Shown here: positions 8,469-36,698 of the stretch, piece after piece
How positions within the stretch are numbered: the first letter of the stretch is position 1
Layout: each line of letters starts with the position of its first letter
Source of the DNA: a virus
Taxonomy: Duplodnaviria; Caudoviricetes
Virus record (IMG/VR): IMGVR_UViG_3300034062_005355
DNA length: 64,000 nucleotides
Direction: 5' to 3' (one strand)
Made by a program: the position numbers and the translations under genes
The notes under the pieces: generated by a model
Databases searched by the model: none
What the model saw: only the letters and a program-made list of their open reading frames with translations
Told to the model about the DNA's origin: nothing

Positions 8469-11400
8469 ATGGAAAAAATAGTTTTAGGTAAGATTATAAA
8501 AAAGATTTTTTTATTATCTGTATTAATATTATCATTAATCGGCGTAACCCAAAAAGAAGTAAATGCTTCTCACGTTGTTGGTTCCGACATATCTTATGTC
8601 TGTACAACCACACCAGGTGTTTATCGTGTTCAGTTTAAGATATATAGAGATTGTCAGGGTGTTCAACTCTGTGCCAATTGTCCCACAAGTTTAAGTCCTT
8701 CTTGTAATATTCCAATTATATTGACAGGTGGATCTGCACCTACAGGTTCAGGTTTACCAACAAGCCCTTGTGCTGGAATTAATTTTGGAACCCAAAATAT
8801 AAATGTGGTTACAGGTGTTAGTGGTTTTGATGTTGTACAACTATGTTCAGGAGAAAAATCCATTTGTACTAATTGTGGGACTAGAACACCTGGTACTTTT
8901 GTTCCTGGTATTGAGGTGTATACATTTGAAGGGAATATTAGTTTAGCATCTATTCCGGCTAGTTGTTGTTTAATCAATATAGGTTATAGTATCTGTTGTA
9001 GAAATGATGCTATAACTACTTTAGTAAATCCTGGCGCTTTAAATTTTTATACTCAAGGTACAATTAATAGGTGTGTAACACCTTGTAATTCTTCTCCAAC
9101 ATTTACAAATGACCCTGTTGCGGTTACTTGTGCGGGACAAGATTTTACTTACAATTTAGGAGCTATTGACCCTGATGGTGATTCTTTAAGTTATTCTTTT
9201 GGGCAATCACTTACAGGACCTGGTGTTACGGCGCCATATCTTTCACCATACAGTGCCAATGTACCACTACCTTATTTAGGTGCGCCAATTCAAACACCAC
9301 CTGCGGTTCCTCCTATTGGTATCAGCATAGATCCTGTAACTGGAGATCTACGGTTTAGACCGATGGGAACCTTTGTTGCTAATTTAATTATAGAGGTTCG
9401 ACAATGGAAAATGGTAGGAGGAGTACCTACCTTAATGGGTGTAACTCGAAGGGACATTCAGTTTTATAGTAGGATTTGTCCTGAAAATAACCCACCTGTT
9501 TTACGAACATGGACCAATGATGGAGTTTTAACCTCACCACAACCAAACTTTAGTTATTCTGTTTGTGCTGGACAACAATTATGTTTTATGATTTCTGCTT
9601 GGGATAATACCGCAGTTACCGATACTACAGACATTACTTGGAACGCGCCAACATTATTAGTTAGTAAAGGTGCTACATTTGTTAAAGCATATAATCCTAT
9701 TCAAAGAACTATGATTGGACCAAAATATGATAGTGTTCGTTTTTGTTGGACACCTGGTCCTGAAATGGCGAGTAATTTACCTTATTATTTTGTTGTTACC
9801 GCCAAAGATAGGGCGTGTCCTATTCCGGCTCGTACTACAAGATCATTTAGTATTTTAGTTAGAAGGATTCCTATAGCAAATATCATTAAAACCAACAAAA
9901 ATTGTGGCTTCTATGATTTTTCATATACTCAAACAAATGTCGTTCCTATTAACCCTTCGTATACTAAATTCTTAATTGAAACAAGCCCTAATTCTAATAC
10001 TTACCAAACTTTTGTTGGACCTAATGTGATCAATCATAGATTTTTACAAGGTGGTTGGCATAAAATTAGGTTACAGTTAACAACAACTGCACCACCATCA
10101 CCCAATGGTTGTCCTAACGATAATATTTGGGACTCTGTTTTGGTGGTACCTCCTGTTGATGTAAATATTAGGGATACTTTTAATTGTTTTGGAACTTCAG
10201 TTATAGTTAGGGCAAATGGACGAGATGGTACGCCTTTTGGTAGTACTTATCGGTATACTCTATATGGTGGTGGTATGGGTTCAAACAACATTATTAGAAC
10301 TTTTGGTATTGATTCCAATTTTGTAATAAACCCAACAAACCCTGGTGTTAGTAGCTCTTACAAAGTTGTTATTCAGGATTTGAATGGTTGTAAAGACTCA
10401 ACTTTATTAAATGTGTTTACTCGTAATTTACCGATTAAAGAGTTACCAAATTCTGTTCGTTATTGTTTTGGTGCAACTGACACCATAGATGGTGGTAATA
10501 GTAATGGTAGTGTTAATATTTGGCGTTGGAATAAAATTCCTGTATCACCAGTATTGACTGATACTGTATCACAAAAAATTACACCAAGAGATAGTGGTCA
10601 ATATATTGTAAGAAAAACGGATTTAAATGGGTGTTCTCAGTTGGATACTATTATGGTTTATATTAATGAAAGAGTACCTGTTAGTGCTGGTCCTAATCGA
10701 ACTATTTGTGAGAAAGACGCACCAATAAATATAGTTGGTGTTGGTACGACCGCAGCCATAGATAGTTTTCAATGGAGATCGATTCCAATATCAAACCCTG
10801 ATGTTGTTTTAAGTAGAACATCAATTCTAAATGTATCACCATTGATTACAACCAGTTATCAAGTGAGAGGATTTTTAACTTATGGTGGTGTTGGATGTTC
10901 TTATGTTGATACTATGGATGTAATAGTTAAACCATTACCAATAATTAATAGACCTGATAATATGTCTTTGTGTAGAAATACTAACATAGTATTACTACCA
11001 AATATTACTTCTACAAACAAACCTGGATTGATAACATCGGTATGGAATTATCCATCAAACCCAAATGCGATTAATGGTAATCAAGTTATAATATCTAATT
11101 TAATTAATTTACCACCAGTACCACCAACACCTGTAAGAGGAAATATTATTCGTCTTAACGTAAACGATGTTGATGGATGTAGAATAAGTGATTCAATCGT
11201 AATCTCTGTCTTTCCTGTACCATTAATTAACGCAGGATCAAGTAGAAACTTTTGTGATTTTGCTAGTGTGTTTAACATTAACCCAGGTTCCCAACTATAT
11301 TCTCCAAATGGAGGTGCGTTAGCAACTAATGAAGAGTGGTTTGGTCGTGGTATTAATAAACCAAATCCCGCGATTAATTATTATGCATTTAATCCACAAG

Positions 11401-13316
11401 GTGTTGACGTATTAACTTTACCTGACACAAATATTATAACTTATAAATTTACTGCTACATTCCCATTAAATAATAGTGTGTTATTTACACCTGCGGTTAG
11501 TGGTTTTTTCGCACCATCACCAATAGGAGGTTGTTTAGCTACCGATACTTTGGTATTTTCAGTAATAAAAACTCCGAAGTTAGAAACAGGTATTGCACCA
11601 TCTTTATGTAGGTCAGGTACTATTGTCGATATAGATCAACATATGTTAGGTAGAAGTACAACATCTATTAACCCACTAAGTAGTTATTGGTATATTGGAT
11701 CACCTGATCAGATGTATAGGACTTCAATAACTAATGGTAGAAATTTCAACCCATCAAGTCCTATATTAGAAAATTTCACCAGACAGTACAGATTAGTATA
11801 TGCTGACACATCAACAACTTGTAGGGTTGCGGATACAACTACAATTCAAGTTAATGAGAATCCTGTTGTGGATATCGATTATAATATTGTTAGTGATAGT
11901 TCAATTTGTAAAACTCGTGGTAGTGTATTCTTCTTTATGAATCCAAATAACATTTCAAGTGTTGATGGTGAGATGAAAAGTTTTCCAACTTTACCGACCA
12001 CAGCATTTGATGTAACTAATGGTAAATTTACAATCAATAATGTTCCTGATGGGGTTTATAATATTAAATATTATTATAAGGATCCTGGAACGGGATGTGA
12101 TAACAAAGATTCAATAAATATTAGAATACAAAGTCCACCTCAGGTAGATATTGTAGATGATGGATCGGTTTGTTCTTATGATGCCATTTTTAATGTGGGG
12201 TTTAAAACAATACCAAGTTCGCCATATACTTGGAATTGGGTAACACCTGATGGTAACGGGAATATTATTGATAATGGTATAAATGGAATTAACTATACCG
12301 CAACACCATTCGACATTATTCGTGGAAAAGTTACTTTTAAAGTTACAACTATAGATTTAACTACCGATCCCGATATTTGTGGTTCTGTAAGTGATTCTAT
12401 AACTTATACGATTAAACCAAAACCAGTTGCTGATTTTACTATATCACCTGATAGAGGTTGTGTTGATGAGAGATATGGGTTGGTGTTAAATTCAACTTAT
12501 ACTGCGGTTCCAAGTATTGTGGGTAGTACTTATAAGTGGTATATGGATGTTACTGATTTTAATAGTACACCACTTAACTCAAATCCATTTAATCAAACTG
12601 TTTTATCACAAACATTTACTAAATCAGGAAATCACAGGATATATTTGTTTGTTGAGGCTGATGGTTGTAAAGATACTACTGACGCTACATTAACTGCTTG
12701 GCCAACACCAGTTGCGTCATTTACCACGGATCCAAAAAGTACAACAATTGCTAAACCAAATTTTGATTTCTTTAATCAATCAAATATATCCGACAATTCA
12801 AACTTAAAATATATTTGGTATTTTCCACCACTAACTCCTGGTATACCAAGAGTAGATTATACTTTTGAACCAACCCAAGTTCAGTTTATGGCAGATACTG
12901 GTTTACAGTGTATAAAACTAACTGCGATTAGTCCTAACGGTTGTTATGATTCTACACTAGAATGTGTTCGTATTGAGCCAGATATCACGGTGTTTATTCC
13001 AAATGTATTCCGTCCGATTAACGTTGATGGAAAAGGGGGAAGTACGATAGAATGTGGATTTGGATGTAATAGGACTTTCAAAGTAAGTGCTACAGGATTT
13101 GAAACATTAGAAATATTTGTATTTAATCGTTGGGGTCAAAAGGTTTATGAATCATACATGACAGATAAAACGTACAATCCTGAGGAAGGGTGGAATGGAA
13201 GAGACTTTAATAAAGGACAGGATTGTCAACAAGATGCATATATTTACCAAGTAAATGCAACCAGTTTTAACGGTAAAAAATACACATACAGCGGTTCGGT
13301 TACATTATTAAGATAA
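8469..13316 (+). CDS. large secreted adhesin-like protein with PKD/Ig repeats and T9SS type B (gliding-motility-associated) C-terminal domain
   Basis: Signal peptide ending ..NA/SHVVGSDISY; PVADFT/PVASFT PKD motifs; C-terminal FIPNVF...FNRWGQKVY...WNG...YIY...GSVTLLR. Confidence 0.85.
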   Translation: MEKIVLGKIIKKIFLLSVLILSLIGVTQKEVNASHVVGSDISYVCTTTPGVYRVQFKIYRDCQGVQLCANCPTSLSPSCNIPIILTGGSAPTGSGLPTSPCAGINFGTQNINVVTGVSGFDVVQLCSGEKSICTNCGTRTPGTFVPGIEVYTFEGNISLASIPASCCLINIGYSICCRNDAITTLVNPGALNFYTQGTINRCVTPCNSSPTFTNDPVAVTCAGQDFTYNLGAIDPDGDSLSYSFGQSLTGPGVTAPYLSPYSANVPLPYLGAPIQTPPAVPPIGISIDPVTGDLRFRPMGTFVANLIIEVRQWKMVGGVPTLMGVTRRDIQFYSRICPENNPPVLRTWTNDGVLTSPQPNFSYSVCAGQQLCFMISAWDNTAVTDTTDITWNAPTLLVSKGATFVKAYNPIQRTMIGPKYDSVRFCWTPGPEMASNLPYYFVVTAKDRACPIPARTTRSFSILVRRIPIANIIKTNKNCGFYDFSYTQTNVVPINPSYTKFLIETSPNSNTYQTFVGPNVINHRFLQGGWHKIRLQLTTTAPPSPNGCPNDNIWDSVLVVPPVDVNIRDTFNCFGTSVIVRANGRDGTPFGSTYRYTLYGGGMGSNNIIRTFGIDSNFVINPTNPGVSSSYKVVIQDLNGCKDSTLLNVFTRNLPIKELPNSVRYCFGATDTIDGGNSNGSVNIWRWNKIPVSPVLTDTVSQKITPRDSGQYIVRKTDLNGCSQLDTIMVYINERVPVSAGPNRTICEKDAPINIVGVGTTAAIDSFQWRSIPISNPDVVLSRTSILNVSPLITTSYQVRGFLTYGGVGCSYVDTMDVIVKPLPIINRPDNMSLCRNTNIVLLPNITSTNKPGLITSVWNYPSNPNAINGNQVIISNLINLPPVPPTPVRGNIIRLNVNDVDGCRISDSIVISVFPVPLINAGSSRNFCDFASVFNINPGSQLYSPNGGALATNEEWFGRGINKPNPAINYYAFNPQGVDVLTLPDTNIITYKFTATFPLNNSVLFTPAVSGFFAPSPIGGCLATDTLVFSVIKTPKLETGIAPSLCRSGTIVDIDQHMLGRSTTSINPLSSYWYIGSPDQMYRTSITNGRNFNPSSPILENFTRQYRLVYADTSTTCRVADTTTIQVNENPVVDIDYNIVSDSSICKTRGSVFFFMNPNNISSVDGEMKSFPTLPTTAFDVTNGKFTINNVPDGVYNIKYYYKDPGTGCDNKDSINIRIQSPPQVDIVDDGSVCSYDAIFNVGFKTIPSSPYTWNWVTPDGNGNIIDNGINGINYTATPFDIIRGKVTFKVTTIDLTTDPDICGSVSDSITYTIKPKPVADFTISPDRGCVDERYGLVLNSTYTAVPSIVGSTYKWYMDVTDFNSTPLNSNPFNQTVLSQTFTKSGNHRIYLFVEADGCKDTTDATLTAWPTPVASFTTDPKSTTIAKPNFDFFNQSNISDNSNLKYIWYFPPLTPGIPRVDYTFEPTQVQFMADTGLQCIKLTAISPNGCYDSTLECVRIEPDITVFIPNVFRPINVDGKGGSTIECGFGCNRTFKVSATGFETLEIFVFNRWGQKVYESYMTDKTYNPEEGWNGRDFNKGQDCQQDAYIYQVNATSFNGKKYTYSGSVTLLR

Positions 13317-15159: not shown

Positions 15160-15547
<388 letters not shown>

Positions 15548-15613
15548 TGAAACAATCACGAAAAGGTTGACGTTGTTGTAAAACTATGGTTTCCTTTTCT
15601 AAAATTGAAATTC

Positions 15614-15623
15614 GTTCTTTGAA
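15614..15623 (+). promoter_or_regulatory. boxA-like antitermination element
   Basis: GTTCTTTGAA immediately before the large ncRNA; resembles rrn boxA. Confidence 0.5.
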
Positions 15624-15629
15624 TATAAA

Positions 15630-16510
15630 ATATTTATCCGTTCAGTAGTTTATTATGAGACCTTCGGGTTGATTATGAGACATTTAATCTGATAAAGGTA
15701 ATCGGCCGTATATGGTCGTTAAATAAACCATGAAAGTGGGATAAAGTGAACCTGTTGTGTTAACAGGATTGCGGCTTCGGTAACGGAGCTCGAGTATACA
15801 GGCGAGATATCATCTTTGCTTTAGTAATCGAGGGTAACACTGTAGATGAAGAGTTGAGATGACCAAGCGATGTGGGTCGTTTGGTTGAGATGGGAACATC
15901 AATAAGAATAACTCGTAGGGATATTGTAAAAAGTGAGACCTCCAATCTCATCATTGCGAATTCCAATACGAAAGTGGACTTAAAACCGAAAGGTATGATA
16001 GAGTACAGGTGGTGCTGTTACTATCCCTACTTTGAATCTACCAAGGTTCTTAGTTTGAAGTAAACTTGACATATGGAGGTGGGGACATCTCAGGGAGTAG
16101 TTTAGTATTCTGTTGTTCAAAAGATAACGGAGCTTACGGTGGACCACTACTTCTATCATCCACGACACAAACCTTAATATACATATGTTAATGTAATAAT
16201 TAATTAAAATATCAAGCACAAGTGTCCATCAGGTTTTGATGAAAGTCGCCTACATAGTCATGGGTTGTCCATGGCACACTGAGACTGCAAGTTGATGTGT
16301 ATTTTTACCAAAAACCTCTAAGGGGTCGAACCCTGAGTTAGCTCGCAAGGTTAAAGAGAGTTGAGTAATGAAAGAGTAGTTAAAACCTTTAGGAGTGATT
16401 GGTCTAACCAATCGGCGATGAGGATTACATCCCAAAAGGATGTGGATATAAAGGGAACTAATAATCCTTTTAAAGATTCTCAATAATAGGTGTAATCTCA
16501 ACCTTTTTAG
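15630..16510 (+). ncRNA. large structured ncRNA, probably GOLLD-like (boundaries approximate)
   Basis: ~880 nt with no credible ORF, GC above background, many UUCG/GNRA-capped stems; lies after a tRNA and ends at a terminator. Confidence 0.65.
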
Positions 16511-16515
16511 CCACT

Positions 16516-16549
16516 AAACCTCATCTGTTAATTCAGGTGGGGTTTTTTT
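16516..16549 (+). terminator. intrinsic terminator
   Basis: aaacctcatctg...caggtggggttttttt. Confidence 0.75.
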
Positions 16550-16613
16550 ATTTAAAAATAATTTGGTTTGTTATAATAATTTCAATATCTTTGTATTGTT
16601 AATAAGAAAGAAT

Positions 16614-35108: not shown

Positions 35109-36698
35109 ATGAAATAAATATAAGAGTATGTGGTTAATGTGAAACTAATTCACTCACTCCATGGGTGTCTACTTCGTGACACCATTCCCTTCGTTCATTC
35201 CTTTCACATTCCCCCACCTTATAACTTGTCCCCACCAAACGACAAGACATATGACATGTGATGTAGTGGTTAGATAATATATAGTATAAAAAGACAATAT
35301 CCTACGGATAATAGATAACATACTATCTACGACCTAACCATATAGTGTGGGGAATGAGATGGACTCGTAAGATAAGACCTACGGTCTATGTTTATGTGAG
35401 TCCATTAGTCTCCCACTTATCACCACATGACTTGTCTCCACTATGAAGGGACATATAATATCCACCACGTATGGGGTTAAATAACCTATCGGTTCACTCC
35501 TATAGTCGGTCTTCGACACTCGTTGAAGGGGGATAAAATCCCTCTGTAACACTCACTACGTTCGTTTCACCGCCCATTACACTAGACACTCCTTTTTTAT
35601 CTGGAAAACGTATATAGTAAAAATATGGTCCTCACACTATCGTCAGGGGGAAAAAAGTGGTCATTATACTATCCACATAACCATATCGGTGGTAAAAAGT
35701 GGGGGATAGTGTAGTGACAGGAATACCACAAAAGGGGGTCAGGGGATTATCCCCATGCTAACGCGTCCCCTGACATTTTGACAAATCCAAATTTTTACCC
35801 CTAAAGTTACCCACATCCCCAAACTTTTTATCCCCCTGTCATAGTGTCATGTGGAAAAGTATATTTGTGGATAAGTTTATTTTATGTGTTCCGTAACCCT
35901 AATCTGTTCACTTTGTTCACAATGTGAATATATTTATCCACATGGAAATAACTGTGGACACATTGTCATATGCAATGGACGTAATAGAGGTGGGGAGAAT
36001 AAGAATGGTAATCTCTCTCAACGAGGAAGTGGAACTCGGAACATTATATTTTGAGAAGGCGAAGAGAACCTTCCAACGAAAACCAATAGGGATGGATGCG
36101 TGGGCATGTGTGGATGCAAAGATAGAGGGGTTATATGTCCATGGTGGTGAACACATAACCCCCAAGGATATGGTAAGGAAATGTCAGGACCTCATCAAAG
36201 AGAACGGTTACTAACCCCTTCTCCGACGTGGCGGGGTATTAATCTTTCTTGGTTAACATACGGTATATCCACATGATGATATACCCCAAGAATAAAGCTT
36301 GTAAAAATTTTCTCATGGTACAAAGATATAAAAAGTATTTAGATTTACAACATATTAATTATATTTATTAGTATAATGTTAATATTCCCCCTCAGTAGGG
36401 GATTCACCACTCAGTATCTTAATGAACGTAAAGTTTGGGGTTAATGTTTAATGAATAATCTTATTAAAAATATTACCCTGTGGGTAAGAGAAAGTTAATA
36501 ACCTACACGGAATTTTTTTATTCCATATGTGTGGGGTTTTTAGTTTATGGTCCCCATATTTTTTTTATAGGGCGAGCCGCCTCTGATTCAGCTCCAAGGG
36601 TTTCCCCCAGCCCGTCTTAACAATCTCCCGATATGTGACAATACAAAGGTATGGATAATAATTCAAACCCCCAAATATATTTTCATATATTTATTATT

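What the first reader, a model, noticed from the sequence alone, without database searches (positions are those of the whole stretch)
15600..16550. ~880-nt structured RNA expressed like an rRNA operon
Seen: an ORF-free, stem-rich region (ccttcggg, ccgaaagg, ctcgcaag, catcccaaaaggatg) preceded by four tandem sigmaA promoters, tRNA-fMet and GTTCTTTGAA, and closed by a terminator. Established: GOLLD RNAs are ~800-nt phage-associated RNAs often next to tRNA genes, with unknown function. A boxA-like site would imply use of host Nus antitermination. The family call was not verified.
Basis: partly seen in the sequence, partly recalled or inferred. Interest (0 to 1): 0.62.

Follow-up and report, generated by a model that had tools for sequence, protein, structure and literature searches.

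The report
Phage GOLLD RNA with rRNA-style leader
This gene-free stretch is a full-length copy of GOLLD, a known giant phage RNA that self-assembles into hollow cages of unknown purpose; here a lake phage of Bacteroidota places it behind a copy of the promoter-and-boxA signal that its hosts use to make ribosomal RNA.

Summary
Confirmed and identified. Window 16093-16504 matches the whole Rfam GOLLD model (321 bits, cut-off 150; no ROOL or OLE hit). The 5' half is colinear with the cryo-EM-solved env-38 GOLLD and covaries strongly in 29 relatives, and three cage-forming kissing contacts are kept. So this is a new member of a known family, not a new class. Corrections: the four promoters are Bacteroidota-type (TTTG...TAnnTTTG), two before and two after tRNA-fMet, and short unconserved ORFs do overlap the RNA. 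The boxA idea holds up by comparison: all 37 non-redundant GOLLD loci carry GTTCTTTGA (30) or a near variant (7) just upstream; the motif also heads phage tmRNA genes; 15 of 18 host-phylum 16S leaders carry it or a variant. Nus recruitment is inferred (about 0.65), not shown. Related RNAs occur in four lake metatranscriptomes (contigs only: no strand or level). I found no paper linking GOLLD to boxA, but this scan already reported the same arrangement on several other genomes. What the cage does remains open.

The parts
15160..15191 (+). Promoter P1, Bacteroidota primary-sigma type (-33 TTTG, -7 TAnnTTTG); predicted start about 15196
   Evidence: -7 box at -12..-5 per PMC9723704
15236..15267 (+). 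Promoter P2, same type; predicted start about 15272; flanked by a 10-bp inverted repeat
15285..15293 (+). boxA-like variant GTTCTTTTA ahead of the tRNA (weaker case; one mismatch)
   Evidence: same word ahead of tRNA-Met in L070/L099 region alignments
15306..15379 (+). tRNA-fMet(CAT), no encoded CCA, one extra base in the D arm
   Evidence: initiator marks read from the sequence
15401..15432 (+). Promoter P3; followed by an imperfect 58-nt hairpin (15440-15497)
15516..15547 (+). Promoter P4, near-duplicate of P3; predicted start about 15552
15553..15607 (+). Leader hairpin in the boxB position (relatives mostly have a short hairpin here)
15614..15623 (+). boxA-like GTTCTTTGAA, the Bacteroidota rrn-leader motif
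15631..15700 (+). Variable 5' accessory hairpin, outside the env-38 construct; absent in 5 of 30 aligned loci
15701..16092 (+). GOLLD 5' domain, env-38 type (includes the GAAA loop at 15986 and three pseudoknots)
16093..16504 (+). GOLLD 3' domain (Rfam RF02032 model 1-416), including the variable AU-rich linker about 16165-16212 and the cage-bridge loops L20, L21a, L21b
16516..16549 (+). Intrinsic terminator

Best explanation
The stretch is the stable-RNA operon of a large freshwater phage of Bacteroidota. Host RNA polymerase with the primary sigma factor starts at four tandem promoters; P1/P2 give tRNA-fMet plus read-through and P3/P4 feed the GOLLD directly (inferred). Just before the RNA the transcript shows a hairpin and a boxA copied from the host's rRNA leaders; this most likely loads host NusB-S10 with NusA/NusG/SuhB so that a 1-kb untranslated RNA escapes Rho and folds while it is made (inferred, about 0.65). 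The product is an env-38-type GOLLD (shown by sequence) that keeps the loops which join monomers into a hollow cage, so it most likely forms a 12- to 14-mer cage (inferred, about 0.8). My best guess for purpose (about 0.3) is support of phage translation: an abundant, nuclease-resistant RNA body that shelters or decoys for tRNAs or ribosomes against host RNA-targeting defences.
For: Rfam GOLLD 321 bits, full model. 5' domain: 83 pairs, 97.6% of cells paired, 55 pairs with compensatory change, vs 36-43% paired when slid by 1-3 columns. Bridge L20-J13/15: 30 of 30 Watson-Crick, 15:15 C-G/G-C swap. L21a dinucleotide always self-complementary (GC 25, CG 4, AU 1); L21b GC in 30 of 30, as described for bridges B7-B9 (PMC12286853). 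boxA: 30 of 37 non-redundant loci exact, 7 with one or two changes; promoter followed by boxA in 17 of 45 cases before GOLLD vs 6 of 146 elsewhere, three of those six being tmRNA genes. Host phylum: 30 of 120 promoter+boxA sites lie within 700 nt of a 16S start and 8 directly head tRNA genes; 15 of 18 leaders chosen by 16S alone carry the motif or a variant, 6 exact, 0 exact on the reverse strand. The B. subtilis counterpart (core UCUUUGAAA) binds NusB directly (PMC13753749). Four distant huge-phage relatives encode a housekeeping-type NusG. Host type: CHU_C T9SS protein, 1 of 51 long ORFs with a Shine-Dalgarno-like word.
Against: No experiment shows NusB binding or antitermination for any GOLLD, and I found no test of boxA function in Bacteroidota. 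The 83-pair set was picked from the same alignment, which favours it over the slid controls. No leader-trailer helix like that of rRNA is seen, so the likeness to rrn stops at promoter-hairpin-boxA. In E. coli, loss of boxA lowers 30S output only 2- to 3-fold (PMC10250234), so the effect may be modest. Six closer relatives show no NusG. Nothing here bears directly on what the cage does; the tRNA neighbour varies (upstream, downstream or absent).
Confidence: 0.65

Rival explanations
1. It is a GOLLD, but the GTTCTTTGA word is not a Nus-loading site: it is a 5' processing or maturation signal (nuclease site, or one strand of a processing helix) shared by host and phage stable RNAs.
For: The word sits 8-80 nt before the first helix of GOLLD, tRNA and tmRNA genes, where a 5' end must be cut. 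In some phage tmRNA loci it lies only 6 nt behind the -7 box, tight for loading a complex. RNAalifold paired it weakly with an invariant AAAG near the 3' end.
Against: No complementary trailer: leader-trailer duplex energies equal shuffles in most loci, -5.0 vs -5.2 kcal/mol here. The RNAalifold pairing has no compensatory change. The promoter-hairpin-motif order and the core match the boxA that binds NusB in B. subtilis.
Confidence: 0.2
2. boxA is real but its job is folding (co-transcriptional chaperoning by the Nus ring) or simple Rho shielding of any untranslated phage transcript; it says nothing specific about GOLLD, and the RNA itself is a near-dispensable abundant passenger.
For: The same leader heads tmRNA, tRNA and other small RNAs of these phages. 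ROOL, the sister class, is abundant yet non-essential in one strain (PMC12286853).
Against: The depth of covariation, including intermolecular contacts, shows lasting selection on the cage.
Confidence: 0.3
3. A new class of giant RNA unrelated to GOLLD.
For: The Rfam model covers only the 3' 412 nt; the 5' 460 nt has no Rfam hit.
Against: The Rfam model is the 3' domain only (env-38 residues 421-833); the 5' part is colinear with env-38 by eye and is joined to the 3' domain by a covarying pseudoknot, 15872-77 with 16158-63.
Confidence: 0.01
4. The stretch encodes small proteins.
For: Four ORFs of 63-83 aa overlap it.
Against: They are open in at most 1 of 29 relatives, with frequent frameshifts.
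Confidence: 0.01

Closest known systems
GOLLD RNA (Rfam RF02032), env-38 type (cryo-EM D7 14-mer, PDB 9MEE; Kretsch et al. 2025, PMC12286853)
   Same: Full 3' domain match; colinear 5' domain with the GAAA loop; both P21a and P21b hairpins; bridges B7-B9 kept; about 800-nt core; next to a Met-tRNA; lake phage.
   Different: An extra variable hairpin of about 70 nt precedes the env-38 start; L21a reads CG instead of GC; no tRNA inside the linker; own promoters, boxA leader and terminator, which the GOLLD papers I could read do not describe.
Streptococcus agalactiae GOLLD (700 nt, 12-mer; review PMC12990946)
   Same: Shared 3' domain and cage principle.
   Different: Sag GOLLD lacks P9, P11a-c and P21b; this RNA has P21b and an env-38-length 5' domain.
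Bacterial rrn leader (tandem promoters, boxB hairpin, boxA, boxC) and rrn antitermination complex (NusA/B/E/G, SuhB, S4)
   Same: Tandem strong promoters, hairpin, then the phylum's boxA word, ahead of a long untranslated RNA; tRNA in the same unit.
   Different: No leader-trailer helix or boxC found; cargo is not rRNA; four promoters; function of the motif untested in Bacteroidota.
Lambda nut sites (boxA-boxB with N)
   Same: A phage uses a boxA-type RNA word to recruit host Nus factors (if the inference holds).
   Different: Order is hairpin-then-boxA as in rrn; no N-like protein identified; target is a non-coding RNA, not early protein genes.
Freshwater Bacteroidetes jumbo phages (bS21 phages, PMC9723584; huge phages LR745206, LR756502)
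   Same: 31.8% GC, Bacteroidota signals, shared proteins; relatives of 260-640 kb carry GOLLD, three of five tested encode bS21.
   Different: The window's own genome is not held, so clade, size and bS21/NusG content of this phage are not determined.

Membership tests
GOLLD (RF02032) | 3' domain matches the covariance model above the gathering score | tested here: met
   321.2 bits vs 150, E 3.5e-91, model 1-416
GOLLD (RF02032) | Large ornate 5' domain with covarying helices, total about 800 nt | tested here: met
   55 of 83 pairs with compensatory change; colinear with env-38 by eye
GOLLD (RF02032) | Pseudoknots and intermolecular bridge loops (L20-J13/15, L21a, L21b, L22-J17/22) | tested here: met
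   helix numbers assigned by me from the text of PMC12286853, figures not seen
GOLLD (RF02032) | No conserved reading frame | tested here: met
GOLLD (RF02032) | Phage context, near tRNA genes | tested here: met
   tRNA-fMet 250 nt upstream; 30 window proteins hit GOLLD-bearing IMG/VR loci
GOLLD (RF02032) | Expressed as an abundant RNA | tested here: inconclusive
   Contigs of relatives in four lake metatranscriptomes cover the RNA body; contigs give no strand, ends or level, and runs were chosen by this stretch
GOLLD (RF02032) | Forms a homo-oligomeric cage | not testable with these tools
   Bridge sequences kept; assembly needs mass photometry or cryo-EM
ROOL / OLE | Match to their Rfam models | tested here: not met
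   Only GOLLD and tRNA reach gathering score in the window
rrn-type boxA leader | Same word as the host phylum's rrn leader boxA | tested here: met
rrn-type boxA leader | Order promoter - hairpin - boxA, single-stranded, before an untranslated RNA | tested here: met
rrn-type boxA leader | Leader-trailer helix / boxC | tested here: not met
   No complementarity above shuffles
rrn-type boxA leader | Binds NusB-S10 and confers antitermination | not testable with these tools
   Inferred from E. coli and B. subtilis work

The most novel reading that the evidence does not exclude
A whole group of freshwater Bacteroidota jumbo phages makes its stable RNAs (GOLLD, tmRNA, tRNAs and at least two uncatalogued small RNAs) with the host's ribosomal antitermination machinery, and GOLLD needs that complex to be made in full and folded into cages; the promoter-hairpin-boxA module then also serves as a signpost for undescribed phage RNAs.
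Probability: 0.55. Interest if true: 0.55.

Novelty: new member of a known kind. Interest (0 to 1): 0.35.

Why it matters
The RNA itself adds one more member to a family with hundreds of known sequences and solved structures. What adds something is the expression signal: if the boxA is functional, GOLLD is produced like an rRNA by the host Nus complex, which gives a simple handle (a 9-nt mutation, or NusB depletion) on its biogenesis and places it in the phage's translation-related stable-RNA programme. It also extends rrn-type antitermination to Bacteroidota and their phages, where I found no test of it. It does not by itself answer what GOLLD does.

Tried and rejected
No whole genome is held for the window, so this phage's own Nus genes, size and clade could not be checked. 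Weinberg 2009 and Morgado 2020 were not available, so an earlier mention of boxA there cannot be excluded; a full-text search for GOLLD with boxA or antitermination showed no paper with GOLLD among the 15 rows listed of 77. Classical sigma-70 promoter scan: no excess over shuffles and none of the four promoters listed. My first idea that boxA is missing where a tRNA abuts GOLLD was wrong: those loci carry one- or two-letter variants. Leader-trailer processing helix: not found. Phage NusB (5 genomes) and NusA (10 genomes): not found in those searched. Metatranscriptome depth was in the hundreds to tens of thousands over 15608-16545 and mostly 0-10 on the protein-coding flanks, but I do not use this as a level: runs were picked by this stretch, contigs of many relatives are summed, and flanks are less conserved. 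Rfam searches of two boxA-headed small RNAs in relatives gave only chance-level hits. My column pairing for the 5' accessory helix failed because that part aligns poorly, so it is read from single sequences only. env-38 was compared by eye with a machine-read table; no identity figure is given because the sequence has no reference here.

Full report
OBSERVATION. A cmscan of the whole window gives two hits: GOLLD at 16093-16504 (+), 321.2 bits against a cut-off of 150, covering model positions 1-416, and a tRNA at 15309-15374; ROOL and OLE do not score. ARAGORN calls tRNA-Met(CAT) at 15306-15379; the C1:A72 mismatch and three G-C pairs in the anticodon stem mark it as the initiator. A terminator lies at 16516-16545. 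The region folds better than all 20 shuffles (z -5.9). Four ORFs of 63-83 aa overlap it but are open in 0, 0, 1 and 0 of 29 relatives.

THE RNA. The Rfam model is only the 3' domain: in the solved env-38 GOLLD it is residues 421-833 (PMC12286853). A scan of IMG/VR for a 3' motif returned 117 loci; 77 were full-length relatives, 37 non-redundant at 90% counting the window. In an alignment of 30 (59-75% identity to the window) RNAalifold finds 201 pairs, 142 with at least one compensatory change. For 83 pairs of the 5' domain, 97.6% of cells pair and 55 pairs show compensatory change, against 36-43% when one strand is slid (the pair set was chosen on this alignment, so the control is lenient). 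Crossing helices covary too: 15708-13/15794-99, 15842-46/16037-41, 15872-77/16158-63 (which joins the two domains), 16138-44/16224-30, 16245-50/16414-19 and 16391-93/16403-05. By eye the published env-38 sequence is colinear with the window from about 15701, so the core is about 804 nt, with a variable 70-nt hairpin in front that five of the 30 loci lack. The contacts that build the env-38 cage are kept: L20 with the linker (16287-88 with 16216-17) is Watson-Crick in 30 of 30, half C-G and half G-C; the L21a dinucleotide is always self-complementary (GC 25, CG 4, AU 1); L21b has GC in all 30 (compare). I assigned the helix numbers from the paper's text. Cage formation here is therefore inferred, not shown.

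THE ORGANISM. No prokaryote genome is held for the window. Thirty window proteins hit GOLLD-bearing viral contigs, up to 91% identity; the DHH protein matches the huge phages LR745206 and LR756502 at 40-46%, which also carry GOLLD. The window is 31.8% GC, 1 of 51 long ORFs has a Shine-Dalgarno-like word, and one protein ends in a CHU_C type IX secretion signal. These point to a large freshwater phage of Bacteroidota, like those in PMC9723584; relatives are 260-640 kb.

PROMOTERS. The four promoters match TTTG-N20-TAnnTTTG, the Bacteroidota primary-sigma consensus (-7 box: PMC9723704; the -33 box is from my own knowledge). The window has 19 such sites against 2.7 expected, four of them within 390 nt here. 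P1 and P2 precede the tRNA, P3 and P4 follow it; predicted starts are 15196, 15272, 15437 and 15552. The longest transcript would be about 1350 nt, the shortest about 995 nt.

THE BOXA. Alone, the 9-mer is not striking in the window (6 sites vs 2.7 expected). Comparison makes the case. (a) All 37 non-redundant loci have it just ahead of the RNA: 30 exact, 7 with one or two changes; most show promoter, short hairpin, then the word. (b) In the viral loci a Bacteroidota promoter is followed within 110 nt by the word in 17 of 45 cases before GOLLD, usually at 26-28 nt (66 nt in this window, with a longer hairpin), but in 6 of 146 elsewhere; three of those six head tmRNA genes. Of 100 distinct sites, 47 precede GOLLD, 19 a called tRNA or tmRNA, and several of the other 34 further tmRNA-like or uncatalogued RNAs. 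(c) In GTDB, of 120 promoter-plus-word sites, 30 have a 16S start within 700 nt, 27 more end near the edge of the fetched DNA and 8 directly head tRNA genes. (d) Chosen by 16S alone, 15 of 18 leaders from 17 genomes of the phylum carry the word or a variant (6 exact; 0 exact on the opposite strand). The B. subtilis equivalent binds NusB (PMC13753749), and boxA is necessary and sufficient for the E. coli rrn complex, though its loss costs only 2- to 3-fold in 30S output (PMC10250234). No leader-trailer helix is found. A housekeeping-type NusG is encoded by four distant huge-phage relatives but was not found in six closer, partly incomplete ones; NusB and NusA were not found in those searched. 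The phage would thus rely on host factors.

EXPRESSION. Twenty-four lake metatranscriptome runs hold part of the stretch. In the four laid, contigs of relatives cover the RNA body, the longest 360-380 nt at about 93% identity, and one spans P4, boxA and the 5' end. This shows presence in RNA libraries; it gives no strand, ends or level, and the runs may be one campaign.

HOW IT WORKS. Shown by sequence: an env-38-type GOLLD in a promoter-hairpin-boxA-RNA-terminator unit with tRNA-fMet. Inferred: host polymerase transcribes it strongly; host Nus factors load at boxA and carry polymerase through 1 kb of untranslated RNA while it folds (about 0.65); the RNA assembles into a cage (about 0.8). Guessed: the cage supports phage translation by sheltering or decoying for tRNAs or ribosomes (about 0.3), in line with hypotheses in PMC12286853; nothing here tests that.

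NOVELTY AND SCORE. The RNA is a new member of a known kind. The rrn-type leader was not found in the papers I could search, but two key GOLLD papers were unavailable, and this scan has already reported the same leader on several other genomes; those notes agree with what I tested and are not independent evidence. Interest 0.35: an ordinary family call, raised by a well-supported and cheaply testable clue to how GOLLD is made.

Noticed in passing
L029:3463-3610 (-), also L019, L030, L045, L090, L114: A conserved RNA-like element of about 140 nt with its own promoter and boxA, directly upstream of GOLLD in some relatives; covarying closing helix, optional 31-nt insert, no Rfam hit. Not in this window.
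   Followed up: partly
L068:4191-4390 (+) and L027:2299-2498 (-): A second boxA-headed element of about 170 nt, closed by a GC-rich helix, with no Rfam hit.
   Followed up: partly
L051:3940-4517 (-): A group I intron match (94.9 bits) overlaps the 3' end of a phage tmRNA match, suggesting an intron-containing tmRNA.
   Followed up: no
L276-L279 (huge phages LR756502, LR745206 and contigs behind L059, L022): Phage-encoded full-length NusG of housekeeping type (TIGR00922 best, 123-137 bits), behind a conserved 130-aa gene.
   Followed up: partly
window 35140-36330: About 1.2 kb without long ORFs and of unusual composition, flanked by promoters; possibly an origin, terminus or packaging region.
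   Followed up: no
window about 38418, 39626 (+) and 42400 (-): A GC-rich hairpin element of about 35 nt repeated three times between genes; a terminator-like hairpin and an adjacent 25-mer are also duplicated at about 37497/37957 and 37555/37993.
   Followed up: no
window 8469-13316: 1615-aa protein ending in a CHU_C type IX secretion signal, a Bacteroidota host-type surface protein in a phage.
   Followed up: partly
window 15306-15379: The tRNA-fMet has one extra base in the D arm and scores only 38.6 bits; it may be slightly degenerate.
   Followed up: no
window 16562-16593: Another Bacteroidota promoter restarts transcription just after the GOLLD terminator, ahead of a small gene that follows GOLLD-bearing loci in 27 relatives.
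   Followed up: no
L012, L029, L030, L072 and others, +70 to +155 from the 3' motif: In many relatives tRNA-Met lies directly downstream of GOLLD instead of upstream, so the tRNA order is not fixed.
   Followed up: partly
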